A DNA stretch of 64,000 nucleotides from Naegleria gruberi (GCA_000004985.1 GG738908.1); one strand, 5' to 3'. Counted from the first letter of the stretch, positions 5,146-57,800 are shown. Program-made: numbers and translations. Notes: generated by a model not told the origin, from the letters alone.

Positions 5146-7017
5146 ATGTCGTTTCAAAAATTGAAAGGCTTCCTTAAAAAAATGAGGTTTCCAATCTTCA
5201 CCTCAGACTCTCTATCAACCTCAACGCCAACCTCACTCTCGAATCAGGACGGAACAATTGAAGAGGACTTGGAACGTTTCAGACAATTGAATTCAATTGA
5301 TAAACAAACGGGAGTAAATCAAGCAGCAGTAGTAGAAAATTCTCAAACCACTGCACAAGCACAACATCAACAACCTGCTACAGAGAATACATTAGAAAGC
5401 CTCACAGAGAACGTGCATCAACTCATGCAGAGTATCAAATTTCCACTGAAGAAAGTTGTGATAGGCACTCGGAGAACAACTCTAGTAATGTCTGATCCTA
5501 ATTCTGAATCAGATCGGTCGCTAATCCTTTCTATCTGTAGGTTTTCAATTCAATATCCTATTAATCAAATTAATCATATTAACTAAAGTCAATTTAATTA
5601 CTCTCAGAGGTGCTCAAATGGACATTCCGAACAATCAAGAATCTGAAATTACTCTGGAACAATTGTTTCATTGCCTTGAGAAGTCTTTCCTCGAATATAA
5701 TGTAAGTTTTCATATTGTAATACTGATTATTCTAATCATAACATTTTACAGCCAAAATTGAAACCTTGTAAAATAAGATCCCTCCTCCTAAGATTGTACA
5801 ATACTGGTACTGTTGATTTTACTGTTACTGGCTCCATAGATGGAATTGATAACGATTTGATAGATAAACTGCTCAAGTGGGTAAAGATTTACTTTGTACA
5901 TGGAACATTAATATCAGATAGCGATCCAATCTTTGATTCTCTGAAAGGGATGAAGTATTTCGACCTTATTAATCCCTCCAATAGAAACAAACACTCTAAG
6001 AAGGCAAAAGACATCCAGGAATTTCTCGATCGTCATTCAGATTTGAGTACAACTAAAGATGGACTCACTAAGCTTCACAATACAGAATCCATGAGACTGA
6101 AGATACTCCTCCACGAAGACAGATACTCTGTGATTGTGAATTATAAAGGTAGAGTGTATGAACTCATTGATTCTAACTATTTGGATAAGCATCCTACAAT
6201 TAAATCCAAATATGAACAAGTTAATGGATCGATACCTCCATTTGCAATTTGGGCAAAGTGGCCTCTGCATCACCCAACCGATAAAAGAATGTTGTGTGGA
6301 GGTGACTTTTTTGAGATTAGCCATCAATCAATTGAAGAAATAGTTCTGGATGATCCAAACCAATCTCAAATCACAAACACTGAAATTGATCCAACAGTTA
6401 TCACTTGCCCAATTTCCATGTGTTTGTTCTTTGATCCTGTAGTTGCAGCAGACAATGTCACATATGAGAAGGAGGTTTATAAGAAGTGGTGTGTGAAGAA
6501 GAATGAGGTGGTAAGCCCTGTAACTGGTCGAAGAATTACTACCAAGTTCACAAATGATGTGGTTATACGAAATAAGGTCCAGATATATCTTCAAAAGCAC
6601 ATTCATTTGAAGCTGTCAGAAGATTATTACATTCCAAGGTATGCTGTTGAAGCTTTTAGGAAGGCTGTTATTAGTGGAGCCACAGAAGATGCAGCCATTC
6701 TTTGTAAGGAAGATATTCGCTTGATAATTTTTAAACCAGATGAATTGAAGAACATTAATGAGGATATTGAAGTAGAAGACTCACTGTCAGGTTACAATCT
6801 TGCCTTCATGTACAATAATTGTCAATTACTGAACACTATGAAAGACATAATAACAGAGAATATGTATCTAGCTCTTCAACAAAACTCCACATCTACAGTA
6901 GAAATTCTCTCGTATCATCTGGATGCCATTGAAACAAAGATAAGCGACTTTAGGGAATGCAACAAGGTGAAACTGCAGGCAGAGGTCGCTATGGACCATA
7001 CCTTGATAAATGCTTAA
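5146..7017 (+). CDS. U-box domain E3 ubiquitin-ligase-like protein, 3 exons: join(5146..5540,5608..5701,5752..7017)
   Basis: Two short introns (5541-5607 GT..cag; 5702-5751 GTAAGT..cag) join three ORF pieces in phase. U-box motif VITCPISMCLFFDPVVAADNVTYEKEVYKKWCVKKNEVVSPVTGRRITTKFTNDVVIRNKVQIYLQKH. Confidence 0.6.
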
Positions 7018-7052: not shown

Positions 7053-7124
7053 GGGACCATGGTCTAGTGGTATGATTCTCGCTTTGGGTGCGAGAGGCCG
7101 TGGGTTCGATTCCCACTGGTCCCC
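7053..7124 (+). tRNA. tRNA-Pro (anticodon UGG)
   Basis: A 72-nt cloverleaf: acceptor GGGACCA/TGGTCCC, D-loop AGTGGTA, anticodon loop TTTGGGT, T-arm GTGGG-TTCGATT-CCCAC. Matches the eukaryotic tRNA-Pro consensus ...ATGATTCTCGCTTTGGGTGCGAGAGG.... Confidence 0.85.
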
Positions 7125-7323: not shown

Positions 7324-7396
7324 GGGGTCATGGCGCAGTCGGTAGCGCGTAGGTCTCATAATCCTAAGGTCGTGAGTTCGATCCTCACTGACCCCA
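7324..7396 (+). tRNA. tRNA-Met elongator (anticodon CAU)
   Basis: A 73-nt cloverleaf: GGGGTCA...TGACCCC acceptor, anticodon loop CTCATAA, T-arm GTGAG-TTCGATC-CTCAC. Very close to the eukaryotic elongator tRNA-Met (GCGCAGT.GGTAGCGCGT.GGTCTCATAATC..AAGGTCGTGAGTTCGATCCTCAC). Confidence 0.85.
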
Positions 7397-7589: not shown

Positions 7590-9050
7590 TTAAACAATTT
7601 CTGAAACCAATCTTGAAGACCTGTTTTGACACTCTGACAAACCTTCAGATAACAATTTGACCGATTTCAGCACAGAATCTATGGTATGACCATCCAGTTT
7701 GGATGGTGTGTATCCATTCATTAATTTTTGTGCTGCTTGTTTCTTCCTTCTTGATGCTTCTTCGTATTTTTTGAGAATTTGATCCTTTTCGTAGAGTTGT
7801 CGTTTCAAATCGTCAAGCTCACTTGTTAACTTTCCCATCTCTCGTTTATGTTGATGCCCGGTTTCTACTGCACCTCTAAGGTGATTGAGATCATTTTCAA
7901 GTTTTTCATTCTCTCGTTTGACTTTCTCTAGTGCTTCTTGAGAGACATGTTTCAATTCGTCAACAATTTTCTCTAGATCCGTCACGTTTTGATTATGCTT
8001 CTTTTCTTTTACTTTTGCATCTTCCTCCAAATGGAACACCTTGTCTTCCAATTCTCCGTTTACAGTTTCCATATCTTTAATCAAGTCGAGTGTTATTTTT
8101 TCCGAATTGTTAGAATCCTTAAGTTCCTCAATTAATTTATCAACTTCTTCTGAATGGTTCACTTCTGATTCTTTGAGTGTTCGCTTGAGTGTATCAACTT
8201 CCTCCCTCAACAGAAGAATTTTAGTATCTTGCTGTTGAACCATCAGCTCATATCGTTCAATTTCAGCATCATATTCTCTTTCCAATTCTTCGCTGCTCTT
8301 TTGGTATTTTACATAATTCTCACTCACAACCTCAAGATCTCTGTATGTTTCTAAATATTTTCTCTTAAAGAAGGAAGCTTCCTCACTTGGTGAATCAAAA
8401 GTTTTAGAGATGGAAAAGGTCAAATCCGACTCTTCATCCTGACTATTCGACCCAGATCCTTCCATTACATCCACATTTTCATTTTCAGAGCTCTCTTCAT
8501 CTGCAGCTTCTGCATATGCTCTTCGAACTGCTGATGAATTTTCTTCCAACAACATGTCATTAAATTCAACGCTATCCTCTTCCTGATTTCTGTTGATTCG
8601 TAATTTTAATTCATTCTCAATATCATCTTCATCCTCAGAAAGAGTTGGGCTATCTGAAAATGTTTTTGATCTTGGTGTCCTATTAACAATTGGTGATCTC
8701 GATATTGAGGGAGTTTGAGGAGTCTTATTGATCAAAATATTAAGTTCATCACAATTTCCAAGGTTTTGTAAAATACGAGGCGTTGATAGATGAGAATAAT
8801 TCGACAAGTTATCGTGATGAATACATGTGGTTGATGTTGTTGCAGTTGTGCTGTTTGTTTTCATCCTCTTGATACTATTATTACTACTGTTACTATTGTA
8901 CACGTCTGGAGAGGTTGAATCAGAGTCATCGTCTGTGTAGGACACTAGAGAGTCATCGTCTTCATTGATACTCGTTCGGATTTTTGATATTGGAGTTGTG
9001 TGATGATGAACCTTAGCGATTGTTGCTGTAGACATTGCTGATGGTGCCAT
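7590..9050 (-). CDS. long coiled-coil protein with a Ser/Thr-rich N-terminus (hypothetical)
   Basis: ATG at 9050 opens a 486-aa ORF. The C-terminal ~280 aa are heptad-rich, charged coiled coil (E/K/L). Confidence 0.5.
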   Translation of the reverse strand: MAPSAMSTATIAKVHHHTTPISKIRTSINEDDDSLVSYTDDDSDSTSPDVYNSNSSNNSIKRMKTNSTTATTSTTCIHHDNLSNYSHLSTPRILQNLGNCDELNILINKTPQTPSISRSPIVNRTPRSKTFSDSPTLSEDEDDIENELKLRINRNQEEDSVEFNDMLLEENSSAVRRAYAEAADEESSENENVDVMEGSGSNSQDEESDLTFSISKTFDSPSEEASFFKRKYLETYRDLEVVSENYVKYQKSSEELEREYDAEIERYELMVQQQDTKILLLREEVDTLKRTLKESEVNHSEEVDKLIEELKDSNNSEKITLDLIKDMETVNGELEDKVFHLEEDAKVKEKKHNQNVTDLEKIVDELKHVSQEALEKVKRENEKLENDLNHLRGAVETGHQHKREMGKLTSELDDLKRQLYEKDQILKKYEEASRRKKQAAQKLMNGYTPSKLDGHTIDSVLKSVKLLSEGLSECQNRSSRLVSEIV

Positions 9051-9340
9051 AAGGTGGTGATGATTAAGAAGTGTGGCGATGAAGATTTTTTACTGAAGAA
9101 TTTGATGAAATAACAATATTTTTCCAAGTATCTTATTATAGTCGTTTTTTTTTGAAAATGGCGCCAATTACTGGTATTGAAAAGTCTTGATTAATAAAGA
9201 GATAAGGCAATTCCAAAAATCATGTTAATAAATTGGGTTCATTTGATTGGAGTTTGAACAAAATTGTTGAATAGAATACTATTTTATACTTTTTATTTAC
9301 ATTATTGTCCTACTCAGTTAGGTTTTAATATTTGCATTAT

Positions 9341-11068
9341 CTAGTTAGAAAAAAAGGTGAGTATTTCTTCGTCATCATTATTTGTTAAAGGCAAGTCAAA
9401 CATTTGGATAGAATCTATAATTTCAGCCATTTCTTGGTGTTGCACTGACATGATATCGTCATCAGTTGGTAAATTAGTAAAATGGTGATGGTGATGCACT
9501 GGGAATTGGTTATTCAAATTGGTTTGGTGTTGTTGGGCTTGAACATGGAAATCTTCACTAAAGATTTCATCCATAGTTCTCTTGATAGCCCTGTTATCAT
9601 TAAATGATTGTTGAGAAGGAGCTTGGAAGTATTGCATGGTTGGCTGGTAGTTTTGTTGAGTTTGTTGTGGTTGGAAGGTTTGTCTAGTAAATTGCTTTTG
9701 ATAGTCATACTCAAACAAACGATTCTTCATGGCAGATCCCAGACTACTAATGCTCATATGGGCAGCTGTATTAGTTTGATTATTGTTTTGGAATTGGTTG
9801 GAGTTCCAAATGTTATTATTGGTATTGGTGTTCGAGAATTGTTGGTTGTTTTGTTGCATCATTACCATCATTGCCAATTGACTTGCTGATGGCTGATTGG
9901 ATGGTTGTTGTTGTTGTTGCTGTTGTTGTTGTTGGGATTGAACATTGGAAACACCAGAGAATGAATGTCTTTGTGGTTGGTTGAAATCGAGGCTTAATGG
10001 AACAGTACCTTGAGAAAGGATTCTAGTTGTACGATTCACATAGTTATTATTGTTTGGTGTTGTTATCGAAGGGATTTGTTGTTGTTGGTTATTTGGCATT
10101 TGGAATATGTTTTGTTTCTGACTTATGGTTTGACTCATCTTATTAGGGGAACCAACAACAGTAAACATATGTTTGGATTCTTCTTGTACACTAGGTCCCA
10201 TTTCTGTAAAAGTCTTTCTCAACTTGGTCTTGGATTCGCTTTGAGTTACATTAGAAGTAGATCTAACTCTCTTCTTCTTAGAGATTTGATCTGCATTTTC
10301 ATTTGATACTCGTCGAATGGTTGGACTTGTAAGAGTTTGTTCAATAACTTCAATATTGCTTTCATTGCTCTTAGTGGTTGGTTGTGTTACAATGGTTGAT
10401 GAATCAAATGCTTGGACACGATCAATAATTTGATCTATCAAATCATTATCAAGGGACTTTTGGAACATGTAGGCGTTTTCAATACCATACTTATTGTTAC
10501 CTTTACCCAATGAATTTCTCTTGGCCTTAATCATTAAAAAGTAGTGTTCTTCATTCTTAGTAACTTCTTCTGTAATAACAAAAGGCATTACAAATAATTT
10601 TACAGTACCGTTGCAGCCCTTACCGTGACTCTTAACTCTGAAAGCAACTTTTGGTGGTTGATTAGAATTGAGATTATTGGTCTTTGTATTTGTTGGATTG
10701 GCACGAGCACCGGTTGATGATATTACAGATACCCTATCATTCTTCTTTACAGAACTAAAAGTAATTGGGAGCATTTTCTTGATGAGGGTTTGAGCGGTAG
10801 CCATTGTACTTGAGAGGCCATCTTCAGCCAAGTACACACTAACACTTCTATCTGTGAGGATATCAAGCGAGTAATGTTCGACAGTCTTACCAAGAAGAGA
10901 AATTTCTACAGAGTTATTATTGATATCGGTACGTTTCTTGGTATAAAGTTGGAATGGTTGAAGAATTTTAGTGAGTTGGATTGATGTCGAATCAGCAGAC
11001 GTATTCTTATCGGTATTCGAAGAATTGATCATATCCTTCAAGAAGATTTCTTGTCTTTGGGAAGTCAT
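9341..11068 (-). CDS. Gln/Asn-rich putative nuclear regulator with a globular N-terminal domain (hypothetical)
   Basis: ATG at 11068 (the listed start at 11098 is a non-ATG codon). Poly-Q (QSQQQQQQQQQ) and N-rich tracts sit beside a compact domain (FRVKSHGKGCNGTVKLFVMPFVITEEV...). Confidence 0.5.
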   Translation of the reverse strand: MTSQRQEIFLKDMINSSNTDKNTSADSTSIQLTKILQPFQLYTKKRTDINNNSVEISLLGKTVEHYSLDILTDRSVSVYLAEDGLSSTMATAQTLIKKMLPITFSSVKKNDRVSVISSTGARANPTNTKTNNLNSNQPPKVAFRVKSHGKGCNGTVKLFVMPFVITEEVTKNEEHYFLMIKAKRNSLGKGNNKYGIENAYMFQKSLDNDLIDQIIDRVQAFDSSTIVTQPTTKSNESNIEVIEQTLTSPTIRRVSNENADQISKKKRVRSTSNVTQSESKTKLRKTFTEMGPSVQEESKHMFTVVGSPNKMSQTISQKQNIFQMPNNQQQQIPSITTPNNNNYVNRTTRILSQGTVPLSLDFNQPQRHSFSGVSNVQSQQQQQQQQQQPSNQPSASQLAMMVMMQQNNQQFSNTNTNNNIWNSNQFQNNNQTNTAAHMSISSLGSAMKNRLFEYDYQKQFTRQTFQPQQTQQNYQPTMQYFQAPSQQSFNDNRAIKRTMDEIFSEDFHVQAQQHQTNLNNQFPVHHHHHFTNLPTDDDIMSVQHQEMAEIIDSIQMFDLPLTNNDDEEILTFFSN

Positions 11069-23757: not shown

Positions 23758-24807
23758 CTAGTCAATTCTGATTACAACCTTTCCAAAGTGCTTTCCACTA
23801 GCCAAATACTCAAAAGCTTCTTTTACATTCTCAAAGTCAAACACCCTATCTACAACAGGTTTAATTTCATTAATTTCAATGGACTTGTTCATCCTCTCAA
23901 ACACACCTCTCGATCCAATATAAATTCCCCTCATCTGGACCGAACTATAGAGAACCTTCTCTCCAAATCCACTACAGGTTCCAGCAGACTTGGCCAAAAC
24001 ACCAATAATATGGACATGCCCTCCCAAACGCACAGCATCCAGTGAACGATTCAAAGTGCCCTCTCCACCAACTTCCAACACATGATCGACACCTTTTCCG
24101 TTAGTAATTTCTCTCACCTTAATTTCCCAATCTGGATGTTTCTTATAATTAATTAAAAAAGAAGCACCAAGAGATTGAGCGAGTTTTAACTTTTCATCAC
24201 TGGAGGACAGTACCATAACTTGGCAACCAGCTCTTACTGCAAATTGAAGACCAAACAGAGAGACACCACCAGTTCCAATAATGAGAACAGTTTCGCCTGG
24301 GCCTGCCTTGACACCATTCTCATTGAGAGCACTCCATGCAGTGACTGCAGCACATGGTAAGGTTGAAGCTTGTTCATAACTCAAATGAGAAGGAAACTTG
24401 ATCAAAGCACTCTCTTCAAAGACACGATATTGAGCCAAGACTCCTGGTACAGTAGCACCAAGAGCACGAGAGACATTGTCAGGAGTGATAGGACCATCTT
24501 GCCAAGTTTCAAAGAAGGTTCCACATACACGATCACCAATTTGAAAGGAAGTTACTTCATCTCCCAAGGCAACTACTTGTCCAGCTCCATCTGAGAGTGG
24601 AATTAATCCTGGTGGGAAGGAGAAACTTCCAAATTGACCTCTCGAGATGAGAATGTCTCTAAAGTTGAGACTGGCTGCATGTAAACGAACAAGGACTTGT
24701 TTTCTTTGGGGAGTTTCTACTGGTTCTGAAGGGAAGAGAGTAAGACCATGTGTGCCTTCAAAATGTTGTAGACGATATTGTTTTTGTGTGGTTGGGATTT
24801 CTGCCAT
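23758..24807 (-). CDS. medium-chain dehydrogenase/reductase (zinc-type alcohol dehydrogenase-like / NADPH:quinone oxidoreductase family)
   Basis: ATG at 24807. N-terminal GroES-like region, a Rossmann GxGxxG-type motif (LIIGTGGVSLFGLQFAVRAGCQV) and a C-terminal KHFGKVVI typical of quinone oxidoreductases. Confidence 0.8.
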   Translation of the reverse strand: MAEIPTTQKQYRLQHFEGTHGLTLFPSEPVETPQRKQVLVRLHAASLNFRDILISRGQFGSFSFPPGLIPLSDGAGQVVALGDEVTSFQIGDRVCGTFFETWQDGPITPDNVSRALGATVPGVLAQYRVFEESALIKFPSHLSYEQASTLPCAAVTAWSALNENGVKAGPGETVLIIGTGGVSLFGLQFAVRAGCQVMVLSSSDEKLKLAQSLGASFLINYKKHPDWEIKVREITNGKGVDHVLEVGGEGTLNRSLDAVRLGGHVHIIGVLAKSAGTCSGFGEKVLYSSVQMRGIYIGSRGVFERMNKSIEINEIKPVVDRVFDFENVKEAFEYLASGKHFGKVVIRID

Positions 24808-25269: not shown

Positions 25270-26961
25270 TTAATAGTAAATATCTCTGACACCTTCAGCA
25301 ATTCTTTCAAGGTTCTTCTTGAGTGACTTTCTCTTGGCTTCAGATGGAATGTTCTTTTGTTCTTCTTCAATTCTGTTCCAACCAACAGTTTGAGTTTTTT
25401 CATCGGCATAGTCATGCAAGTATTCAGCAAGTGTCATGATACTGTTAGGATGACACATATTTTGAATGTCACCCTTCTTGGCAATCTTCATAAACTTTTC
25501 ACCAGTACGATTCATTCTGTAACAAGCAGTACAGAAGCTTGGCATGTATCCAGTTTCCAATAATTCACGAATAACTTCACCAGTATTTCTGTGATCACCT
25601 AATGAGAATTGACCCATAGAGTAGTCATCACGCTCGTCTTCCTTCTTTTCATAACCACCAACTGCAGTGTTGGATCCAGCAGACATTTGTGAAATACCAA
25701 GAGAAAGCAATTCTCTTCTCATATCTGGATTTTCTCTTGTGGAGAGAATCATACCAGTGTATGGAACTGAACATCTCAATACAGCAACCAATTTTTTGAA
25801 TTGAGCATCACTGACAAGGTTTGGAACATGAACAGAAACCTCAGAGCCAGATGCTGGTTTCAGTCTTGGAACTGAGATGGTGTGTGGGCCAGCATTCCAA
25901 ACATCACTCAAATGGTTAGCATGTTGCAACATTGCCAACACCTCGAATCTATAGTCATATAAACCAAACAAAGCACCAATACCAACATCATCCAATCCAG
26001 TCACGAAGGCCTTATCCATGGTTTGCAATCTGTCGTAGTATTGTCCTTTAGTACCAAATGGATGCATTTCCTTGTGTGTTTGACGATGATAAGTTTCTTG
26101 GAACAAGATGTATGTTCCGACCTTGTTGGTTGCCTTCAATCTTCTAAAATCAGAAACACTCAATTGAGGAATTTCAACATTGATTCTTCTCACATCACCA
26201 TGAGGTTCAGTCTTGACATCAGCAGCAACTTGCAATTGTCTCATAAAATCTTCAAATGTATACTTTGGACTTTCTCCGCACAACATTAAAATTCTCTTGT
26301 GACCTTGTTTTTGTAAAGCTTCAACTTCTCTAATGACTTCTTCATCAGAGAGGGCTGATCTTGGCATTTCCTTATTAGATCCTCTGTATCCACAATATAA
26401 ACAACTTCCAACACAATAATTACTAGTATACAGTGGTGCAAACAAAACAATTCTGTTTCCGTAAATTAATTCCTTAATATAAAAAGCTGTTGTATATAAA
26501 CTGTTGAGAATATCAGTTTCTTCCTCTGGAATATTCAACAAGGTTGCAGTATCTTCAAGTGACAATCCTTGAATATATTCATCTTTAGGAATGGTTTCAC
26601 AACTTTGTGATTCAACTTCTCCACCATTCTTCTTATTTCGGAGAAGTGGTGATTTGAGCAAGGCTTGATCTCTAGCTCTCTTCAAAATTTGTCGAACGTG
26701 TTCATGATCTTTGGCTTTTTCCTTTGTTTCTTCCATCATTTGATGAATAAGTTTTTCATCAATAATTTTGGTTGGATCTGGAAGTTGTTTCAAGGTTTCT
26801 GGTTCTCTTTCTACGGACCACCTAGCTTGTGATTTAATGGATGTATGGAAATTCTTTGATGCAGATAACAATGAAGCACTACTACCATTAGTAACAGCAC
26901 AACTACTCAAAAGACCTGATCTTCTTCCACCATTAGCAGCCAATCTAGCTAAACTCTTCAT
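25270..26961 (-). CDS. hydG: [FeFe]-hydrogenase maturase HydG (radical-SAM tyrosine lyase) with an N-terminal presequence-like extension
   Basis: Radical-SAM CX3CX2C (CVGSCLYCGYRG) and the HydG-specific C-terminal CX2CX22C (CTACYRMNRTGEKFMKIAKKGDIQNMC). The N-terminus MKSLARLAANGGRRSGLLSS... is Arg/Ser-rich. Confidence 0.85.
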   Translation of the reverse strand: MKSLARLAANGGRRSGLLSSCAVTNGSSASLLSASKNFHTSIKSQARWSVEREPETLKQLPDPTKIIDEKLIHQMMEETKEKAKDHEHVRQILKRARDQALLKSPLLRNKKNGGEVESQSCETIPKDEYIQGLSLEDTATLLNIPEEETDILNSLYTTAFYIKELIYGNRIVLFAPLYTSNYCVGSCLYCGYRGSNKEMPRSALSDEEVIREVEALQKQGHKRILMLCGESPKYTFEDFMRQLQVAADVKTEPHGDVRRINVEIPQLSVSDFRRLKATNKVGTYILFQETYHRQTHKEMHPFGTKGQYYDRLQTMDKAFVTGLDDVGIGALFGLYDYRFEVLAMLQHANHLSDVWNAGPHTISVPRLKPASGSEVSVHVPNLVSDAQFKKLVAVLRCSVPYTGMILSTRENPDMRRELLSLGISQMSAGSNTAVGGYEKKEDERDDYSMGQFSLGDHRNTGEVIRELLETGYMPSFCTACYRMNRTGEKFMKIAKKGDIQNMCHPNSIMTLAEYLHDYADEKTQTVGWNRIEEEQKNIPSEAKRKSLKKNLERIAEGVRDIYY

Positions 26962-27428
26962 CTTTTCTACTCGGATGTTTTTTTTGTATGAAATTGTATG
27001 TACAAGGTGATATTTGTGTTTTTCAAGTTGTTGTGTTGATATTTGGCTAATGAAAAACTCAAATTTGTTTTGAATTGTGTTTTGTTTTAATTTTTTCTAT
27101 TGTTGTCTAATAGATGACAAAGAAGAGTTTTTCGCTTGTGCTGACGAAAAGATTCTCCACCAAATTAGTGCCTGATTCAATACAAAAAAAAAGATGAGGA
27201 ACCAAAAAGGAAATGAGGTAAGAATCATAGAGTTGTGTATTGAGACCTTTTTCAAGTGAGAGAATCAATAGTTGAAAGAATCTCTTAGAGTTTCATCATC
27301 CAATGAATACATCTTTGCTTAAAAGTCATTGTTTTGCATTGAGAACTATTTTGGAAAAAATTAAGAAAAAAAAATAGCAAAAAAAAACAAAAGCGAAAAT
27401 TCAATCTCATCTTTTCGTAAAATAGTTC
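26962..27428. promoter_or_regulatory. shared divergent intergenic/promoter region between hydG (minus) and hydE (plus)
   Basis: A 467-bp AT-rich spacer with poly-A tracts lies between two head-to-head start codons. A regulatory role is inferred from position only. Confidence 0.4.
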
Positions 27429-29003
27429 ATGATGAAGGGATTGAAAAAATCAGCCACGACACTTCTAAGATCGTCCAAGAGTGGTGGTATCAACTTTAAA
27501 GCAGCATCATTGATTTCGGAATTGAAGTTTGTTCCGAATCAATTGTTGATGAGAAATAACTTTTCTACTTCTTTGATACAACAACATGGCGACCACCACC
27601 ATGATCATCATCATCATGATTTGATGGAGGATGAACTGTTACCTACTCCTAAAAAGACAATTATCAATATTAAAGAACCTCCAATACCTACAGAAGTTGA
27701 TTTGGGAGCAATGGGTGAGCAAGTTGCAACAGCATCATCAGCCAATTCTGATCCAAAAGCTGCTGAACGTAAAATGAAAAGAGCAAGAACTGTAAATTAT
27801 CTTCAAAAACCACTCGAACAGAGAATTTTAGTATTGGAAAAGTATTTTGGAGTGAAACCAGAACTTGGAAAACCTGTGGAATTAACAAAGGAACAAATTG
27901 TAAATGTTTTAAATATTGAGGATCATGAGGAACAAAGAGCTCTCTTTGACTATGCCAATTCAATTACTGAATCAATTTATGGCTCAAAGGTTTACTTTAG
28001 AGGTATTATTGAATTTTCAAATGTTTGTCAGAAGGACTGCAATTATTGTGGTATTAGAAAACATATGCAAGTACCAAGATATACAATGCCAAAAGAAGAA
28101 ATAATAGAACAAGCTATTTGGGCCTATGAAAATCATTTTGGATCCATCATGTTACAATCTGGTGAATTGAATACAGAAGGAAGAATCTCAATGTTAGTCG
28201 ATGTCATTCGTGAAATTAAGAAACGTACAGGTGGAGGAGGTCCAGGTGAATGGAATAAGGGACTTGGTATTGCTCTCGGTGTTGGTGAATTGAGTAGAGA
28301 ATCTTATCAGAGATTATATGATGCTGGTGCTCACAGATATCTCCTAAGAATTGAAACATCCAATCCAGAACTCTACTCTAAACTCCATCCTAACGATGAA
28401 AATCACGTATGGGAAGAACGAAAGAAGTGCTTGGAAACTCTAATGGATATTGGATATCAAACTGGTACTGGTGTAATGATTATGATTCCAAATCAAACAG
28501 TTCAAGATTTGGCAGACGATTTACTCTTCTTTAGAAAAATTGGAGCTGATATGATTGGTATGGGACCATACATTGTTCAAGAAGGAACACCAATTGGAAA
28601 GATTTGGATGGAGCAATATGGTCACATGAATGAAGCAGAAAAGAAGGAATATAACAGAGTTCTATTCAGATTGGCTCTGAAGATGACTGCCCTGGCAAGA
28701 ATTTTAATTCCTGAAGCTAATATTTCTGCAACAACAGCTCTTCAAGCCATCAATCCAGCTGGTAGAGAAATAGCTTTAAGTTCTGGTGCCAATATGGTCA
28801 TGCCTATTATTACACCAACCAAGTATCGTGTCAATTATCAACTCTATCAAGGAAAACCTTGTATTGATGATACTAAGGAAGAATGTAAGAGATGTTTAAC
28901 AGATCGTGTTAAATGGTCTAACAAGCAATTGATTTTAGATGAATGGGGTGATCCAATCAGCTACTTTAATAAGAGAAATATGAAAGTACCGAACAAGGAA
29001 TAA
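27429..29003 (+). CDS. hydE: [FeFe]-hydrogenase maturase HydE (radical-SAM, biotin-synthase-like) with an N-terminal extension and a His-rich tract
   Basis: Radical-SAM CX3CX2C (CQKDCNYCGIRKH) and the HydE-type C-terminal CX7CX2C (CIDDTKEECKRC). N-terminus MMKGLKKSATTLLRSSKSGG... followed by HGDHHHDHHHHD. Confidence 0.85.
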   Translation: MMKGLKKSATTLLRSSKSGGINFKAASLISELKFVPNQLLMRNNFSTSLIQQHGDHHHDHHHHDLMEDELLPTPKKTIINIKEPPIPTEVDLGAMGEQVATASSANSDPKAAERKMKRARTVNYLQKPLEQRILVLEKYFGVKPELGKPVELTKEQIVNVLNIEDHEEQRALFDYANSITESIYGSKVYFRGIIEFSNVCQKDCNYCGIRKHMQVPRYTMPKEEIIEQAIWAYENHFGSIMLQSGELNTEGRISMLVDVIREIKKRTGGGGPGEWNKGLGIALGVGELSRESYQRLYDAGAHRYLLRIETSNPELYSKLHPNDENHVWEERKKCLETLMDIGYQTGTGVMIMIPNQTVQDLADDLLFFRKIGADMIGMGPYIVQEGTPIGKIWMEQYGHMNEAEKKEYNRVLFRLALKMTALARILIPEANISATTALQAINPAGREIALSSGANMVMPIITPTKYRVNYQLYQGKPCIDDTKEECKRCLTDRVKWSNKQLILDEWGDPISYFNKRNMKVPNKE

Positions 29004-29102: not shown

Positions 29103-30215
29103 TTAATTCAATTTGAACATTCCTTGAACATCCTTTGCAGAGTAGGCTCCTTCCAAACTCTTCTTCTCCTCTTCAGTCAATTGAATTTCCAATGCTTGAA
29201 CATTGAGCTCAACATTAATAGCCTTTGTTGCACCAATTACCGGACTTACAACCCCAGGCTTTGAAAGCAACCAAGCAAGTGCAATTTGAGCTGGAGAAAC
29301 ATTTCTATTCTTGGCAATCTCAGAAACTTTTCTCAAAGTTTCCTTATCACCTTCAGTCAACTTGTCCTTAAATAAGGATTGAACAAAATCGGTGCTTTGT
29401 CTCTTGGATCCGTTTTCAGTAGTTTCAGTTGCCTTCTCCTCAGCATTGACAAATTCATGAGCACGAGCTAACATTCCATTAGAAAGAGGTCCCCAAGGTG
29501 TGAGTGAAACACCTTGATCAACACACAATGGATTCATTTCTCTCTCCTCTTCTCTATAGATGAGATTGTAGAGATTTTGCATGGAAATGAATTTAGTCAA
29601 TCCCTTCTTCTCAGCATAATGTTGAGCTTTAGCAAATTGCCAAGCAAACATAGTAGAAGCACCAATGTATCTGACCTTGCCAGATTTAACCAAATCATGG
29701 AGAGCGTCCATGGTTTCTTCAATTGGTGTTTGTTCATCCCAACGATGGATAATGTACAAATCAATGTCTGTTTGAATTTTTCATTTCGTACGAGTTGAAA
29801 TAAAGTAATACTTACAATCAAGACCCAATCTTTGTAATGAATCCTCAACGGCATGCATAATGTGCTTTCTGGAAAGGCCCATAGTATTCGGCTTGGCTTG
29901 ACTACCAACCATAATGAGCTTTTGTTCACCAGAACGATCCAATGGTGCACAAACTTTGGTAGCTACCACAATTTCCTCTCTCGGAATGTTAAATTCCTTA
30001 ATGAACTTGCCCAAAATTCTTTCACTTTCTCCATTGCTGTAAATATTGGCAGTGTCGAAAAAGTTAATGCCCAAATCCCAGGCCTTCTTCAAAATGGTCA
30101 ATGATTCCTCTTCTTCCAAAACCCATGGAAGCCACTTGGAAGATCCAAAGCTCATGCAACCCAAACAAAGTTGAGAAACCTTCAAACCACTTTCACCCAA
30201 ATTGACGTATTTCAT
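29103..30215 (-). CDS. aldo-keto reductase (Kv-beta/AKR-like), 2 exons: join(29103..29767,29816..30215)
   Basis: A 48-nt intron (GTAAGT...ACAG on the minus strand) rejoins ...RLGLD | YIDLYIIHRWD. AKR motifs LGCMSFG, GINFFDTANIY and DLYIIHRWD are present. Confidence 0.8.
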
Positions 30216-30536: not shown

Positions 30537-30655
30537 GGCTACGGCCATATCACGATGAATGCACCTCATCCCGTCCGATTTGAGAAGTTAAGCATCGTCG
30601 AGCCACATCAGTACTGAGGTTGGAGACAACTTGGGAACCTGTGGTGCTGTAGTCT
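30537..30655 (+). rRNA. 5S ribosomal RNA gene followed by a T5 Pol III terminator
   Basis: Approximately 119 nt, GGCTACGGCCATATCACGATGAATGCACCTCATCCCGTCCGATTTGAGAAGTTAAGCATCGTCGAGCC...GGGAACCTGTGGTGCTGTAGTC, then TTTTT. Helix I pairs the 5' and 3' ends. Matches the 5S consensus (box A/C region ...AAGTTAAGC...). Confidence 0.85.
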
Positions 30656-47543: not shown

Positions 47544-48658
47544 NNNNNNNNNNNNNNNNNNNNNNNNNNNNNNNNNNNNNNNNNNNNNNNNNNNNNNNNN
47601 NNNNNNNNNNNNNNNNNNNNNNNNNNNNNNNNNNNNNNNNNNNNNNNNNNNNNNNNNNNNNNNNNNNNNNNNNNNNNNNNNNNNNNNNNNNNNNNNNNNN
47701 NNNNNNNNNNNNNNNNNNNNNNNNNNNNNNNNNNNNNNNNNNNNNNNNNNNNNNNNNNNNNNNNNNNNNNNNNNNNNNNNNNNNNNNNNNNNNNNNNNNN
47801 NNNNNNNNNNNNNNNNNNNNNNNNNNNNNNNNNNNNNNNNNNNNNNNNNNNNNNNNNNNNNNNNNNNNNNNNNNNNNNNNNNNNNNNNNNNNNNNNNNNN
47901 NNNNNNNNNNNNNNNNNNNNNNNNNNNNNNNNNNNNNNNNNNNNNNNNNNNNNNNNNNNNNNNNNNNNNNNNNNNNNNNNNNNNNNNNNNNNNNNNNNNN
48001 NNNNNNNNNNNNNNNNNNNNNNNNNNNNNNNNNNNNNNNNNNNNNNNNNNNNNNNNNNNNNNNNNNNNNNNNNNNNNNNNNNNNNNNNNNNNNNNNNNNN
48101 NNNNNNNNNNNNNNNNNNNNNNNNNNNNNNNNNNNNNNNNNNNNNNNNNNNNNNNNNNNNNNNNNNNNNNNNNNNNNNNNNNNNNNNNNNNNNNNNNNNN
48201 NNNNNNNNNNNNNNNNNNNNNNNNNNNNNNNNNNNNNNNNNNNNNNNNNNNNNNNNNNNNNNNNNNNNNNNNNNNNNNNNNNNNNNNNNNNNNNNNNNNN
48301 NNNNNNNNNNNNNNNNNNNNNNNNNNNNNNNNNNNNNNNNNNNNNNNNNNNNNNNNNNNNNNNNNNNNNNNNNNNNNNNNNNNNNNNNNNNNNNNNNNNN
48401 NNNNNNNNNNNNNNNNNNNNNNNNNNNNNNNNNNNNNNNNNNNNNNNNNNNNNNNNNNNNNNNNNNNNNNNNNNNNNNNNNNNNNNNNNNNNNNNNNNNN
48501 NNNNNNNNNNNNNNNNNNNNNNNNNNNNNNNNNNNNNNNNNNNNNNNNNNNNNNNNNNNNNNNNNNNNNNNNNNNNNNNNNNNNNNNNNNNNNNNNNNNN
48601 NNNNNNNNNNNNNNNNNNNNNNNNNNNNNNNNNNNNNNNNNNNNNNNNNNNNNNNNNN
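47544..48658. other. assembly gap (1115 N)
   Basis: Run of N. ORFs predicted inside it are artefacts. Confidence 0.95.
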
Positions 48659-50358: not shown

Positions 50359-50408
50359 NNNNNNNNNNNNNNNNNNNNNNNNNNNNNNNNNNNNNNNNNN
50401 NNNNNNNN
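50359..50408. other. assembly gap (50 N) between two tandem element copies
   Basis: Run of N. Confidence 0.95.
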
Positions 50409-54768: not shown

Positions 54769-57700
54769 NNNNNNNNNNNNNNNNNNNNNNNNNNNNNNNN
54801 NNNNNNNNNNNNNNNNNNNNNNNNNNNNNNNNNNNNNNNNNNNNNNNNNNNNNNNNNNNNNNNNNNNNNNNNNNNNNNNNNNNNNNNNNNNNNNNNNNNN
54901 NNNNNNNNNNNNNNNNNNNNNNNNNNNNNNNNNNNNNNNNNNNNNNNNNNNNNNNNNNNNNNNNNNNNNNNNNNNNNNNNNNNNNNNNNNNNNNNNNNNN
55001 NNNNNNNNNNNNNNNNNNNNNNNNNNNNNNNNNNNNNNNNNNNNNNNNNNNNNNNNNNNNNNNNNNNNNNNNNNNNNNNNNNNNNNNNNNNNNNNNNNNN
55101 NNNNNNNNNNNNNNNNNNNNNNNNNNNNNNNNNNNNNNNNNNNNNNNNNNNNNNNNNNNNNNNNNNNNNNNNNNNNNNNNNNNNNNNNNNNNNNNNNNNN
55201 NNNNNNNNNNNNNNNNNNNNNNNNNNNNNNNNNNNNNNNNNNNNNNNNNNNNNNNNNNNNNNNNNNNNNNNNNNNNNNNNNNNNNNNNNNNNNNNNNNNN
55301 NNNNNNNNNNNNNNNNNNNNNNNNNNNNNNNNNNNNNNNNNNNNNNNNNNNNNNNNNNNNNNNNNNNNNNNNNNNNNNNNNNNNNNNNNNNNNNNNNNNN
55401 NNNNNNNNNNNNNNNNNNNNNNNNNNNNNNNNNNNNNNNNNNNNNNNNNNNNNNNNNNNNNNNNNNNNNNNNNNNNNNNNNNNNNNNNNNNNNNNNNNNN
55501 NNNNNNNNNNNNNNNNNNNNNNNNNNNNNNNNNNNNNNNNNNNNNNNNNNNNNNNNNNNNNNNNNNNNNNNNNNNNNNNNNNNNNNNNNNNNNNNNNNNN
55601 NNNNNNNNNNNNNNNNNNNNNNNNNNNNNNNNNNNNNNNNNNNNNNNNNNNNNNNNNNNNNNNNNNNNNNNNNNNNNNNNNNNNNNNNNNNNNNNNNNNN
55701 NNNNNNNNNNNNNNNNNNNNNNNNNNNNNNNNNNNNNNNNNNNNNNNNNNNNNNNNNNNNNNNNNNNNNNNNNNNNNNNNNNNNNNNNNNNNNNNNNNNN
55801 NNNNNNNNNNNNNNNNNNNNNNNNNNNNNNNNNNNNNNNNNNNNNNNNNNNNNNNNNNNNNNNNNNNNNNNNNNNNNNNNNNNNNNNNNNNNNNNNNNNN
55901 NNNNNNNNNNNNNNNNNNNNNNNNNNNNNNNNNNNNNNNNNNNNNNNNNNNNNNNNNNNNNNNNNNNNNNNNNNNNNNNNNNNNNNNNNNNNNNNNNNNN
56001 NNNNNNNNNNNNNNNNNNNNNNNNNNNNNNNNNNNNNNNNNNNNNNNNNNNNNNNNNNNNNNNNNNNNNNNNNNNNNNNNNNNNNNNNNNNNNNNNNNNN
56101 NNNNNNNNNNNNNNNNNNNNNNNNNNNNNNNNNNNNNNNNNNNNNNNNNNNNNNNNNNNNNNNNNNNNNNNNNNNNNNNNNNNNNNNNNNNNNNNNNNNN
56201 NNNNNNNNNNNNNNNNNNNNNNNNNNNNNNNNNNNNNNNNNNNNNNNNNNNNNNNNNNNNNNNNNNNNNNNNNNNNNNNNNNNNNNNNNNNNNNNNNNNN
56301 NNNNNNNNNNNNNNNNNNNNNNNNNNNNNNNNNNNNNNNNNNNNNNNNNNNNNNNNNNNNNNNNNNNNNNNNNNNNNNNNNNNNNNNNNNNNNNNNNNNN
56401 NNNNNNNNNNNNNNNNNNNNNNNNNNNNNNNNNNNNNNNNNNNNNNNNNNNNNNNNNNNNNNNNNNNNNNNNNNNNNNNNNNNNNNNNNNNNNNNNNNNN
56501 NNNNNNNNNNNNNNNNNNNNNNNNNNNNNNNNNNNNNNNNNNNNNNNNNNNNNNNNNNNNNNNNNNNNNNNNNNNNNNNNNNNNNNNNNNNNNNNNNNNN
56601 NNNNNNNNNNNNNNNNNNNNNNNNNNNNNNNNNNNNNNNNNNNNNNNNNNNNNNNNNNNNNNNNNNNNNNNNNNNNNNNNNNNNNNNNNNNNNNNNNNNN
56701 NNNNNNNNNNNNNNNNNNNNNNNNNNNNNNNNNNNNNNNNNNNNNNNNNNNNNNNNNNNNNNNNNNNNNNNNNNNNNNNNNNNNNNNNNNNNNNNNNNNN
56801 NNNNNNNNNNNNNNNNNNNNNNNNNNNNNNNNNNNNNNNNNNNNNNNNNNNNNNNNNNNNNNNNNNNNNNNNNNNNNNNNNNNNNNNNNNNNNNNNNNNN
56901 NNNNNNNNNNNNNNNNNNNNNNNNNNNNNNNNNNNNNNNNNNNNNNNNNNNNNNNNNNNNNNNNNNNNNNNNNNNNNNNNNNNNNNNNNNNNNNNNNNNN
57001 NNNNNNNNNNNNNNNNNNNNNNNNNNNNNNNNNNNNNNNNNNNNNNNNNNNNNNNNNNNNNNNNNNNNNNNNNNNNNNNNNNNNNNNNNNNNNNNNNNNN
57101 NNNNNNNNNNNNNNNNNNNNNNNNNNNNNNNNNNNNNNNNNNNNNNNNNNNNNNNNNNNNNNNNNNNNNNNNNNNNNNNNNNNNNNNNNNNNNNNNNNNN
57201 NNNNNNNNNNNNNNNNNNNNNNNNNNNNNNNNNNNNNNNNNNNNNNNNNNNNNNNNNNNNNNNNNNNNNNNNNNNNNNNNNNNNNNNNNNNNNNNNNNNN
57301 NNNNNNNNNNNNNNNNNNNNNNNNNNNNNNNNNNNNNNNNNNNNNNNNNNNNNNNNNNNNNNNNNNNNNNNNNNNNNNNNNNNNNNNNNNNNNNNNNNNN
57401 NNNNNNNNNNNNNNNNNNNNNNNNNNNNNNNNNNNNNNNNNNNNNNNNNNNNNNNNNNNNNNNNNNNNNNNNNNNNNNNNNNNNNNNNNNNNNNNNNNNN
57501 NNNNNNNNNNNNNNNNNNNNNNNNNNNNNNNNNNNNNNNNNNNNNNNNNNNNNNNNNNNNNNNNNNNNNNNNNNNNNNNNNNNNNNNNNNNNNNNNNNNN
57601 NNNNNNNNNNNNNNNNNNNNNNNNNNNNNNNNNNNNNNNNNNNNNNNNNNNNNNNNNNNNNNNNNNNNNNNNNNNNNNNNNNNNNNNNNNNNNNNNNNNN

Positions 57701-57800
57701 NNNNNNNNNNNNNNNNNNNNNNNNNNNNNNNNNNNNNNNNNNNNNNNNNNNNNNNNNNNNNNNNNNNNNNNNNNNNNNNNNNNNNNNNNNNNNNNNNNNN
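54769..57800. other. assembly gap (3032 N)
   Basis: Run of N. The flanking ORFs of X are artefacts. Confidence 0.95.

What the first reader, a model, noticed from the sequence alone, without database searches (positions are those of the whole stretch)
25270..29003. Head-to-head [FeFe]-hydrogenase maturase pair HydG / HydE with N-terminal targeting-like extensions
Both radical-SAM maturases of the H-cluster pathway sit here about 470 bp apart, with divergent start codons. HydG carries its diagnostic C-terminal CX2CX22C as well as the CX3CX2C motif, and HydE carries CX3CX2C plus the C-terminal CX7CX2C. A maturase pair implies that a functional [FeFe]-hydrogenase and a HydF GTPase are encoded elsewhere in the genome. 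In eukaryotes that is restricted to a few anaerobic or facultative lineages. Both proteins have Arg/Ser-rich N-terminal extensions resembling mitochondrial or hydrogenosomal presequences. The shared promoter suggests co-regulation, as reported for the algal HYDEF/HYDG pair.
Basis: partly seen in the sequence, partly recalled or inferred. Interest (0 to 1): 0.75.

Follow-up and report, generated by a model that had tools for sequence, protein, structure and literature searches.

The report
Known Naegleria hydrogenase maturase gene pair
These are the HydG and HydE genes of the amoeba Naegleria gruberi, which help build the iron cofactor of its hydrogen-producing enzyme; they were annotated in 2010 and studied experimentally in 2014, so the finding is correct but not new.

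Summary
ORF 25270..26961(-) (563 aa) and ORF 27429..29003(+) (524 aa) lie head-to-head, 467 bp apart. Both pass NCBI's curated equivalog cut-offs for HydG (477 bits against 312) and HydE (294.9 against 254.6). ThiH, BioB and PylB all fall far below their own cut-offs. All four Cys motifs are present.

The window is Naegleria gruberi NEG-M. The two proteins are identical to XP_002671139.1 ('HydG') and XP_002671091.1 ('[Fe] hydrogenase maturation protein'). HydF (P0284) lies on another scaffold. HydA (XP_002674266) and aerobic H2 production are published.

The leaders do resemble presequences: HydG has no acidic residue in its first 50. But Tsaousis et al. 2014 worked on this very HydE and confirmed its 5' end by RACE. 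They found it cytosolic, and its N-terminal 230 aa did not import GFP into yeast mitochondria. HydG itself was never localised.

The divergent arrangement is conserved in N. fowleri, N. lovaniensis and a metagenomic Naegleria. In N. fowleri both proteins fall together under iron starvation.

By-products:
- Maturase genes are linked in several eukaryotic supergroups.
- HydE carries a His-rich block found only in Naegleria and Willaertia.
- An AGAATCW motif is enriched in the intergenic region.

Verdict: already known, low interest.

The parts
25270..26961 (-). HydG coding sequence: single exon, 563 aa, identical to XP_002671139.1 / EFC38395.1
   Evidence: ORF list. Exact-sequence look-up. TIGR03955 scores 477 bits against a cut-off of 312, while ThiH scores 263.6 against 380. 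Best PDB hit is 4WCX, the HydG of T. italicus, at 6.6e-144.
26812..26961 (-). HydG leader, residues 1-50: acid-free, rich in S/A/R/K, ending in KNF-H
   Evidence: Composition: 0 D/E, 7 R+K, 14 S+T. The sequence varies but the character is conserved, as are the MKS[LIV][AT]R start and the [RK]-x-F-[SH] end in Naegleria relatives. Translation checked.
26764..26823 (-). Eukaryote-wide HydG N-terminal block RWSVEREPETLKQLPDPTKI (residues 47-66), which lies before the start of the bacterial proteins
   Evidence: Alignment A1: the block is present in all 14 eukaryotic sequences and absent from the 3 chlamydial ones. Translation checked.
26392..26415 (-). HydG radical-SAM cluster motif CVGSCLYC (C183, C187, C190)
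   Evidence: The three Cys are invariant in alignment A1.
25453..25533 (-). HydG C-terminal auxiliary-cluster motif CX2CX22C (C477, C480, C503)
   Evidence: Invariant in alignment A1. Aligned to 4WCX.
26962..27428 (.). Divergent intergenic region, 467 bp, 29% GC; presumed bidirectional promoter
   Evidence: The same head-to-head layout occurs in N. fowleri, N. lovaniensis and a metagenomic Naegleria contig. Promoter function is inferred, not shown.
27150..27283 (.). Cluster of four AGAATCW motifs (27150-, 27221+, 27261+, 27277+); candidate shared cis-element
   Evidence: 4 observed against 0.38 expected from the density across the window. Each of the three orthologous intergenic regions has 2 copies in the HydE orientation. 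The k-mer was chosen after seeing the data.
27429..29003 (+). HydE coding sequence: single exon, 524 aa, identical to XP_002671091.1 / EFC38347.1
   Evidence: TIGR03956 scores 294.9 bits against a cut-off of 254.6; PylB scores 103.9 against 348 and BioB 76.4 against 225. Best PDB hit is 3CIW, the HydE of T. maritima, at 6.6e-73.
27429..27869 (+). HydE N-terminal extension (residues 1-147): a basic leader, a His/Asp-rich block, and a conserved pre-core segment
   Evidence: Alignment A2. No homologue outside its own cluster among 1.84 billion representatives. 5' RACE and the failed yeast import are published (PMC4007538).
27585..27620 (+). HydE His/Asp-rich block HGDHHHDHHHHD (residues 53-64), followed by the conserved EDELLPTPKKTIINIKEPPIP
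   Evidence: Conserved in N. fowleri, N. lovaniensis, metagenomic Naegleria and Willaertia. Absent from Acanthamoeba, algal and bacterial HydE.
28026..28049 (+). HydE radical-SAM motif CQKDCNYC (C200, C204, C207)
   Evidence: Invariant in alignment A2.
28860..28895 (+). HydE C-terminal CX7CX2C motif (C478, C486, C489)
   Evidence: Nearly invariant in alignment A2, lost only in the Mastigamoeba sequence P0155.

Best explanation
This locus holds the nuclear HydG and HydE genes of Naegleria gruberi NEG-M. They are two of the three maturases that build the [2Fe] subcluster of the H-cluster of the organism's [FeFe]-hydrogenase.

Mechanism, from established work on the bacterial enzymes and inferred here from orthology and intact motifs:
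- HydG is a radical-SAM tyrosine lyase. Its C-terminal auxiliary cluster assembles an Fe(CO)2(CN)-cysteine synthon.
- HydE is a radical-SAM enzyme that processes that synthon towards the di-iron precursor.
- HydF, encoded on another scaffold, acts as the GTPase scaffold that delivers the precursor to HydA.

In Naegleria the pathway operates in the cytosol. This has been shown experimentally for HydA and HydE, and is inferred for HydG and HydF. The pathway supports aerobic H2 production.

The two genes are transcribed divergently from a 467-bp AT-rich spacer that probably acts as a shared bidirectional promoter (inferred). The layout is conserved across the genus.

The N-terminal extensions look like presequences in composition. 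At least for HydE, they do not function as mitochondrial import signals.
For: - Exact identity to GenBank XP_002671139.1 (HydG) and XP_002671091.1 (HydE) of N. gruberi.
- Both score above the NCBIfam equivalog cut-offs, and all paralogue models score below theirs.
- Pfam finds Radical_SAM plus BATS in HydG and Radical_SAM in HydE.
- All Cys motifs are present and conserved in the alignments.
- The closest solved structures are HydG 4WCX and HydE 3CIW.
- N. gruberi HydF was found as P0284.
- Published for N. gruberi: HydA, hydrogenase activity and H2 production; cytosolic HydA and HydE; 5' RACE of the maturases; failed yeast import of the HydE N-terminus (PMC4007538).
- The divergent pair is conserved in N. 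fowleri (559 bp between the annotated starts), N. lovaniensis and metagenomic contig L009 (199 bp).
- The flanks are syntenic: ADK and a Thy1-like gene on one side, kinase-DOCK and RGS on the other.
- N. fowleri HydE and HydG proteins fall together under iron limitation (PMC7326272).
Against: - No enzymology exists for the Naegleria maturases.
- HydG has never been localised. Its acid-free leader and an RxF|S-like motif are conserved across species, which hints that the leader has some function.
- Cytosolic localisation of HydE rests on heterologous antibodies and a yeast import assay. A 2026 paper calls Naegleria localisation 'not yet rigorously defined' (PMC13632651).
- Promoter sharing is inferred from geometry and conservation only. 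There are no transcript data for N. gruberi here.
Confidence: 0.93

Rival explanations
1. The leaders are working organelle-targeting signals. HydG, and possibly a fraction of HydE, is imported into mitochondria, so H-cluster maturation is organellar or dual-localised, as in Acanthamoeba.
For: - The HydG leader is acid-free for 50 residues in N. gruberi, 66 in N. fowleri and 74 in N. lovaniensis. It is basic and rich in Ser/Thr.
- A conserved [RK]-x-F-[SH] motif just before the mature core resembles an MPP R-3 cleavage site.
- Fritz-Laylin 2010 predicted a mitochondrial targeting sequence for all four proteins (cited in PMC4007538).
- Acanthamoeba HydA and HydE-G are mitochondrial by tagging and proteomics (PMC13632651).
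- HydG was never localised in Naegleria.
Against: - HydA activity and HydA and HydE protein were found only in the cytosolic fraction, with zero activity in mitochondria.
- The HydE N-terminus fused to GFP was not imported by yeast mitochondria, whereas NgSdhB was (PMC4007538).
- In N. fowleri the maturases behave like cytosolic iron proteins under iron starvation.
- A maturase separated from its partners and its substrate enzyme would be hard to explain mechanistically.
Confidence: 0.1
2. The ORFs are paralogous radical-SAM enzymes (ThiH, BioB, PylB or NosL-like), not hydrogenase maturases.
For: These families share the fold. ThiH matches at 263.6 bits, and PylB and BioB give significant E-values.
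Against: - All paralogue scores lie far below their curated cut-offs, while the HydG and HydE models lie above theirs.
- The HydG-specific CX2CX22C motif and the HydE CX7CX2C motif are present.
- The best solved structures are HydG and HydE, with ThiH about 100 orders of magnitude worse.
- HydF, HydA and hydrogenase activity are present in the organism.
Confidence: 0.01
3. The adjacency is only an evolutionary leftover of a transferred bacterial hydGEF cluster. The two genes have independent promoters and no regulatory coupling.
For: - Anoxychlamydiales, the reported sister group of eukaryotic HydE/F/G (PMC7449678), carry a co-directional hydG-hydE-hydF operon.
- Maturase genes are also linked in Porphyridium, Chrysophaeum, Acanthamoeba, Pelomyxa and Volvox.
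- Willaertia, the closest outgroup, has unlinked genes yet keeps all three.
Against: - The head-to-head geometry with a spacer under 600 bp is kept in four Naegleria genomes, although the spacer sequence has diverged.
- A short motif is enriched in all four spacers.
- HydE and HydG proteins change together in N. fowleri.
- A relic origin and a shared promoter do not exclude each other.
Confidence: 0.25
4. The pair is bacterial contamination, or a very recent transfer mis-assembled into a eukaryotic scaffold.
For: The proteins are of bacterial type and lack introns.
Against: - The flanking genes are plainly eukaryotic: homeobox, kinase-DOCK, RGS, F-box and 5S rRNA.
- GC content is like the rest of the window.
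- The locus and its flanks are syntenic in N. fowleri and N. lovaniensis.
- The nearest relatives are other eukaryotes.
- The cDNAs were cloned from N. gruberi.
Confidence: 0.01

Closest known systems
N. gruberi HydG (XP_002671139.1) and HydE (XP_002671091.1), as annotated by Fritz-Laylin et al. 2010 and studied by Tsaousis et al. 2014 (PMC4007538)
   Same: Identical sequences. This is the same locus.
   Different: Nothing differs in the genes. This work adds the conservation of the divergent layout within Naegleria, details of the leaders, and a candidate intergenic motif.
Bacterial HydG (T. italicus, PDB 4WCX; TIGR03955) and HydE (T. maritima, PDB 3CIW; TIGR03956)
   Same: Full-length core homology, both Fe-S motifs in each protein, and scores above the equivalog cut-offs.
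   Different: The Naegleria proteins carry N-terminal extensions of about 66 aa (HydG) and about 147 aa (HydE) that bacteria lack. HydG also has an internal insertion at about residues 105-125. The genes are divergent rather than in one operon.
Anoxychlamydiales hydG-hydE-hydF operon (Stairs et al. 2020, PMC7449678)
   Same: These are the closest named prokaryotic HydG relatives in my search, at 53-55% identity. They are reported as the sister group of eukaryotic HydE/F/G. G and E are neighbours.
   Different: The bacterial genes form a co-directional, overlapping operon that includes hydF and have no leaders.
Green-algal HYDEF/HYDG pair (Chlamydomonas: Posewitz et al. 2004, recalled from memory; Volvox: Cornish et al. 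2015, PMC4416025)
   Same: Head-to-head maturase genes with a short spacer; 426 bp in Volvox by the published coordinates. They are co-induced with HYDA.
   Different: In the algae HydE is fused to HydF, the proteins are chloroplast-targeted, and induction is by anoxia or CRR1. In Naegleria HydE is separate, HydF is unlinked, the proteins are cytosolic, and they are expressed aerobically.
Acanthamoeba castellanii HydE/F/G (PMC13632651)
   Same: An aerobic amoeba with a full maturase set. Its HydE is 53% identical and its maturase genes are also paired head-to-head.
   Different: The pair there is HydF/HydE. The proteins are experimentally mitochondrial and induced by hypoxia. It lacks the His-rich HydE block.

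Membership tests
HydG ([FeFe]-hydrogenase maturase, TIGR03955) | Score at or above the curated equivalog cut-off and above the sister family ThiH | tested here: met
   477 bits against a cut-off of 312.15. ThiH scores 263.6 against a cut-off of 380.
HydG ([FeFe]-hydrogenase maturase, TIGR03955) | Radical-SAM CX3CX2C motif | tested here: met
   C183/C187/C190, invariant in alignment A1.
HydG ([FeFe]-hydrogenase maturase, TIGR03955) | C-terminal CX2CX22C auxiliary-cluster motif, which ThiH lacks | tested here: met
   C477/C480/C503, invariant in alignment A1 and aligned to 4WCX.
HydG ([FeFe]-hydrogenase maturase, TIGR03955) | Tyrosine lyase activity producing CO and CN ligands | not testable with these tools
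   Needs biochemistry. Not reported for the Naegleria protein in the papers read.
HydG ([FeFe]-hydrogenase maturase, TIGR03955) | Co-occurrence with hydE, hydF and hydA in the same genome | tested here: met
   HydE is adjacent. HydF is P0284. HydA is XP_002674266, with measured activity (PMC4007538).
HydE ([FeFe]-hydrogenase maturase, TIGR03956) | Score at or above the curated equivalog cut-off and above PylB, BioB and HmdB | tested here: met
   294.9 bits against a cut-off of 254.6. PylB scores 103.9 against 348, BioB 76.4 against 225, HmdB 43.3 against 321.
HydE ([FeFe]-hydrogenase maturase, TIGR03956) | Radical-SAM CX3CX2C motif | tested here: met
   C200/C204/C207, invariant in alignment A2.
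HydE ([FeFe]-hydrogenase maturase, TIGR03956) | C-terminal CX7CX2C second-cluster motif (common in the family, not universal) | tested here: met
   C478/C486/C489. The motif is missing only in one Mastigamoeba paralogue in alignment A2.
HydE ([FeFe]-hydrogenase maturase, TIGR03956) | Catalytic activity on the HydG synthon | not testable with these tools
   Needs biochemistry.
Mitochondrial / hydrogenosomal matrix presequence | N-terminal stretch that is positively charged, hydroxylated and free of acidic residues | tested here: met
   HydG residues 1-50 have 0 D/E and 7 R+K. HydE residues 1-30 have 0 D/E.
Mitochondrial / hydrogenosomal matrix presequence | Amphipathic helix and a recognisable MPP cleavage motif | tested here: inconclusive
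   The maximum 18-residue hydrophobic moment is 0.51 (HydG) and 0.55 (HydE). An [RK]-x-F-[SH] motif is conserved at the end of the HydG leader. No trained predictor was available.
Mitochondrial / hydrogenosomal matrix presequence | Actually directs import into the organelle | not testable with these tools
   Published result for HydE is negative: cytosolic in N. gruberi, and its N-terminus fused to GFP was not imported in yeast (PMC4007538). HydG is untested.
Bidirectional (shared) promoter gene pair | Divergent start codons less than 1 kb apart | tested here: met
   467 bp.
Bidirectional (shared) promoter gene pair | Arrangement conserved in related species | tested here: met
   N. fowleri, N. 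lovaniensis and metagenomic Naegleria. Not conserved in Willaertia.
Bidirectional (shared) promoter gene pair | Correlated expression, or shared cis-elements shown to act in both directions | not testable with these tools
   Indirect evidence only: joint down-regulation of the proteins in N. fowleri and an enriched AGAATCW motif.

The most novel reading that the evidence does not exclude
The divergent HydG/HydE pair may be a surviving fragment of a single bacterial hydG-hydE-hydF operon, of the Anoxychlamydiales type, that entered an early eukaryote. The genes would have stayed linked in several supergroups because they were re-wired onto bidirectional promoters.

The linkages seen are:
- G/E in Naegleria and Porphyridium.
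- Probably G/E in Cyanophora, from consecutive gene IDs.
- G/EF in green algae.
- E-G-F in Chrysophaeum.
- F/E in Acanthamoeba.

In Naegleria the spacer would carry a conserved AGAATCW element that couples the two genes, perhaps to iron status.
Probability: 0.3. Interest if true: 0.45.

Novelty: already known. Interest (0 to 1): 0.15.

Why it matters
The pair is part of a well-known puzzle: an obligately aerobic amoeba that makes H2 with a fully matured [FeFe]-hydrogenase in its cytosol. The genes, their names, their 5' ends and the behaviour of the HydE leader are all published, so re-finding them adds nothing to that question.

Three small points could still be useful:
- HydG has never been localised, and its leader is conserved in character across the genus.
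- The HydE extension contains a conserved His/Asp-rich block of unknown role, possibly metal binding, restricted to Naegleria and Willaertia.
- Maturase genes stay physically linked in many unrelated eukaryotes. This bears on whether the pathway arrived once as an operon.

Tried and rejected
- I searched the window for hydF by tblastn with two HydF proteins and found nothing. HydF is on another scaffold.
- I scanned the other large ORFs of the window against Pfam and found no hydrogenase or further maturase.
- The sigma-70 promoter and terminator scan of the spacer is uninformative. It found 1 site against 1.9 expected, and the model is wrong for a eukaryote.
- The MAFFT alignment of the four intergenic regions was poor because the annotated starts differ between species. 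I re-derived the starts: the N. fowleri HydG model of 522 aa is probably truncated (a 581-aa version exists), N. lovaniensis HydG extends 37 codons upstream, and N. lovaniensis HydE starts at MKGLKTL. I then used k-mer sharing instead.
- An exhaustive HMMER search with the HydE extension found only its own cluster and one spurious His-rich repeat protein.
- The Tetradesmus HydEF look-up failed because the product is not on record. Carpediemonas HydG has no maturase neighbour.
- I considered and rejected the ThiH/BioB/PylB identities and bacterial contamination (see the rival explanations).
- No presequence predictor was available, so only composition and hydrophobic moment were computed.


Full report
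**1. What is in the sequence**

ORF 25270..26961 lies on the minus strand (563 aa) and ORF 27429..29003 on the plus strand (524 aa). Their start codons face each other across 467 bp of 29% GC DNA. Each ATG is the first one after an in-frame stop, so the N-termini cannot be longer without an intron.

The stated cysteine motifs are all present:
- HydG has C183x3C187x2C190 and C477x2C480x22C503.
- HydE has C200x3C204x2C207 and C478x7C486x2C489.

**2. Identity**

- Against NCBIfam, the first protein scores 477 bits on the HydG equivalog TIGR03955 (cut-off 312). It scores only 263.6 on ThiH (cut-off 380).
- The second protein scores 294.9 bits on the HydE equivalog TIGR03956 (cut-off 254.6). PylB (103.9), BioB (76.4) and HmdB (43.3) fall far below their cut-offs.
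- Pfam sees Radical_SAM plus BATS in the first protein and Radical_SAM in the second.
- The closest solved structures are HydG of Thermoanaerobacter italicus (4WCX, 6.6e-144; ThiH 7PD1 reaches only 1.8e-46) and HydE of Thermotoga maritima (3CIW, 6.6e-73).

The identification stands.

**3. Source and prior knowledge**

An exact-sequence look-up shows both proteins are already in GenBank. XP_002671139.1/EFC38395.1 is '[Fe]-hydrogenase maturation protein HydG [Naegleria gruberi]'. XP_002671091.1/EFC38347.1 is '[Fe] hydrogenase maturation protein [Naegleria gruberi strain NEG-M]'. Both sit on a 259-kb scaffold.

The window is eukaryotic throughout. It holds a homeobox gene, adenylate kinase, kinase-DOCK, F-box, RGS and U-box genes, a 5S rRNA gene and two tRNAs. 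It also contains three assembly gaps of Ns.

Tsaousis et al. 2014 (PMC4007538) worked on exactly this HydE accession. They report the following:
- The N. gruberi genome encodes HydA (XP_002674266) and three maturases.
- 5' RACE confirmed the predicted N-termini of the hydrogenase and the maturases.
- Hydrogenase activity is present, and about 6 nmol H2 per min per 10^7 cells is made under air.
- HydA and HydE are found only in the cytosol, by immunofluorescence and fractionation.
- The first 690 bp of HydE fused to GFP is not imported by yeast mitochondria, whereas NgSdhB is.

I also confirmed HydF directly. P0284 (543 aa, '[Fe] hydrogenase maturation protein [Naegleria gruberi]') lies on a different 782-kb scaffold. 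It is not in this window.

**4. The N-terminal extensions**

Alignments with bacterial and other eukaryotic homologues show three things.

(a) HydG leader. HydG has a variable leader of about 46 residues, followed by a block, RWSVEREPETLKQLPDPTKI, that is conserved in all eukaryotic HydG sampled. The block lies upstream of the point where the chlamydial proteins start.
- The leader has no acidic residue in 50 positions (P about 4.5e-4 from core composition), 7 R+K and 14 S+T.
- N. fowleri and N. lovaniensis have leaders that are longer still and also acid-free, once their gene models are extended.
- All three begin MKS[LIV][AT]R and end with an [RK]-x-F-[SH] motif that resembles an MPP R-3 site.

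(b) HydE extension. HydE has an extension of about 147 residues, in four parts:
- a basic leader, whose first acidic residue is E31;
- a His/Asp-rich block, HGDHHHDHHHHD, followed by EDELLPTPKKTIINIKEPPIP, conserved in Naegleria spp. and Willaertia but absent elsewhere;
- a variable linker;
- a pre-core segment shared with other eukaryotes.

An exhaustive HMMER search of 1.84 billion representatives found no relative of this extension outside its own cluster.

(c) HydF. HydF carries an extension of about 85 residues.

So 'presequence-like' is a fair description of the composition. The only experimental tests, on HydA and HydE, say these are not working mitochondrial import signals. HydG remains untested. 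A 2026 study that did show mitochondrial HydA and HydE-G in Acanthamoeba notes that Naegleria localisation is 'not yet rigorously defined'.

**5. The divergent arrangement**

The same head-to-head layout occurs in three other genomes:
- N. fowleri: HydG(-) 7873..9441 and HydE(+) 10001..11656 in L001.
- N. lovaniensis: L008.
- A metagenomic Naegleria contig: L009, with a 199-bp spacer.

The flanks are syntenic between N. gruberi and N. fowleri. Adenylate kinase and a 262-aa Thy1-like gene (76% identical) lie on the HydG side. Kinase-DOCK and RGS lie on the HydE side. Three features are interposed only in N. gruberi: a zinc-ADH-like gene (23758..24807), a two-exon aldo-keto reductase (29103..30215) and a 5S rRNA gene (30537..30655). 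In Willaertia magna the three maturase genes are on different contigs.

The spacer sequences have diverged. All four nonetheless share the heptamer AGAATCW:
- N. gruberi has four copies at 27150..27283, against 0.38 expected (P about 6e-4).
- Each of the other three has two copies, oriented with HydE.

The k-mer was chosen after seeing the data, so this is a lead and not a result.

Co-regulation is supported indirectly. In N. fowleri, HydE (NF0081220) and HydG (NF0081230) proteins fall 2.8-fold and 2.4-fold, and hydrogenase activity falls 95%, under iron deficiency (PMC7326272).

**6. Wider context**

Maturase genes are linked in several other eukaryotes:
- Porphyridium: HydG/HydE head-to-head.
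- Chrysophaeum: HydE, HydG and HydF within 4.7 kb.
- Acanthamoeba: HydF/HydE head-to-head.
- Pelomyxa: HydG and HydF 6 kb apart.
- Volvox: HYDEF/HYDG head-to-head, 426 bp apart by published coordinates, which the authors discuss as a possible HGT remnant (PMC4416025).
- Tetradesmus, Chrysophaeum and a 'tig00020995' eukprot genome: consecutive locus tags.

Carpediemonas HydG stands alone.

An Anoxychlamydiales MAG has a co-directional hydG-hydE-hydF operon. Stairs et al. 2020 place this group as sister to eukaryotic HydE/F/G. That fits a single operon-type origin with later re-wiring onto bidirectional promoters, but I did not test it phylogenetically.

**7. Verdict**

It is plausible on co-regulation. 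It is misleading on targeting, given the published cytosolic localisation.

The locus is already annotated and experimentally studied, so novelty is 'already known' and interest is low. The by-products are minor leads that deserve a note rather than a high score:
- the conserved features of the HydG leader;
- the His-rich HydE block;
- the AGAATCW motif;
- the cross-supergroup linkage of maturase genes.

Noticed in passing
window 30537..30655 (+): A complete 5S rRNA gene (Rfam RF00001, 105 bits) sits between the aldo-keto reductase gene and the kinase-DOCK gene, 1.5 kb downstream of HydE. The orthologous regions fetched from N. fowleri and N. lovaniensis have no 5S gene.
   Followed up: partly
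window 23758..24807 (-) and 29103..30215 (-): A zinc-ADH/quinone-oxidoreductase-like gene and a two-exon aldo-keto reductase directly flank the HydG/HydE pair in N. gruberi. Neither is at this position in N. fowleri or N. lovaniensis, where the Thy1-like and kinase-DOCK genes abut the pair. They may be lineage-specific insertions of NAD(P)H oxidoreductases; their origin was not examined.
   Followed up: partly
window 27585..27620 (+), HydE residues 53-64: A His/Asp-rich block, HGDHHHDHHHHD, followed by the conserved EDELLPTPKKTIINIKEPPIP. It is conserved in Naegleria spp. and Willaertia HydE only and has no homologue elsewhere. It may be a metal-binding segment.
   Followed up: partly
window 27150..27283; L001 9791 and 9860; L008 5696 and 5764; L009 1687 and 1702: The heptamer AGAATCW is enriched in the HydG/HydE spacer of all four Naegleria genomes: 4 copies in N. 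gruberi and 2 in each of the others, against 0.4 or fewer expected. The copies outside N. gruberi are oriented with HydE. The k-mer was chosen after seeing the data.
   Followed up: partly
L001 9442..9618 (N. fowleri); L008 5890..6000 and 5387..5587 (N. lovaniensis): Three public gene models look truncated at the N-terminus:
- N. fowleri HydG (522 aa) starts at an internal Met-Met, while a 581-aa version with an acid-free leader exists (P0004).
- N. lovaniensis HydG can be extended 37 codons upstream in frame.
- N. lovaniensis HydE (472 aa) lacks the MKGLKTL... leader and the His-rich block, both of which are encoded upstream in frame.
   Followed up: yes
L004 6001..10733; L005 3081..7344; L006 3753..7951; L010 10001..19867: [FeFe]-hydrogenase maturase genes are physically linked in distant eukaryotes: Chrysophaeum (E-G-F), Porphyridium (G/E head-to-head), Acanthamoeba (F/E head-to-head) and Pelomyxa (G and F 6 kb apart). 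An Anoxychlamydiales MAG (L007 8001..11672) has a hydG-hydE-hydF operon.
   Followed up: partly
window 26764..26823 (-), HydG residues 47-66: A block, RWSVEKEP...LPDP, is conserved in all sampled eukaryotic HydG, whether chloroplast, hydrogenosomal or cytosolic. It lies upstream of the start of the chlamydial homologues.
   Followed up: no
window 47544..48658, 50359..50408, 54769..57800: Runs of N (assembly gaps) explain the apparent GC collapse at 46-50 kb and 54-58 kb. They also explain the spurious long ORFs listed across them.
   Followed up: yes
window 7053..7124 and 7324..7396 (+): tRNA-Pro(TGG) and tRNA-Met(CAT) genes lie 200 bp apart, just downstream of a U-box protein ORF.
   Followed up: no
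P0129 (Willaertia magna HydE model, 833 aa): The Willaertia HydE annotation carries an N-terminal enoyl-CoA hydratase (ECH) domain fused to HydE. This is probably a merged gene model rather than a real fusion.
   Followed up: no
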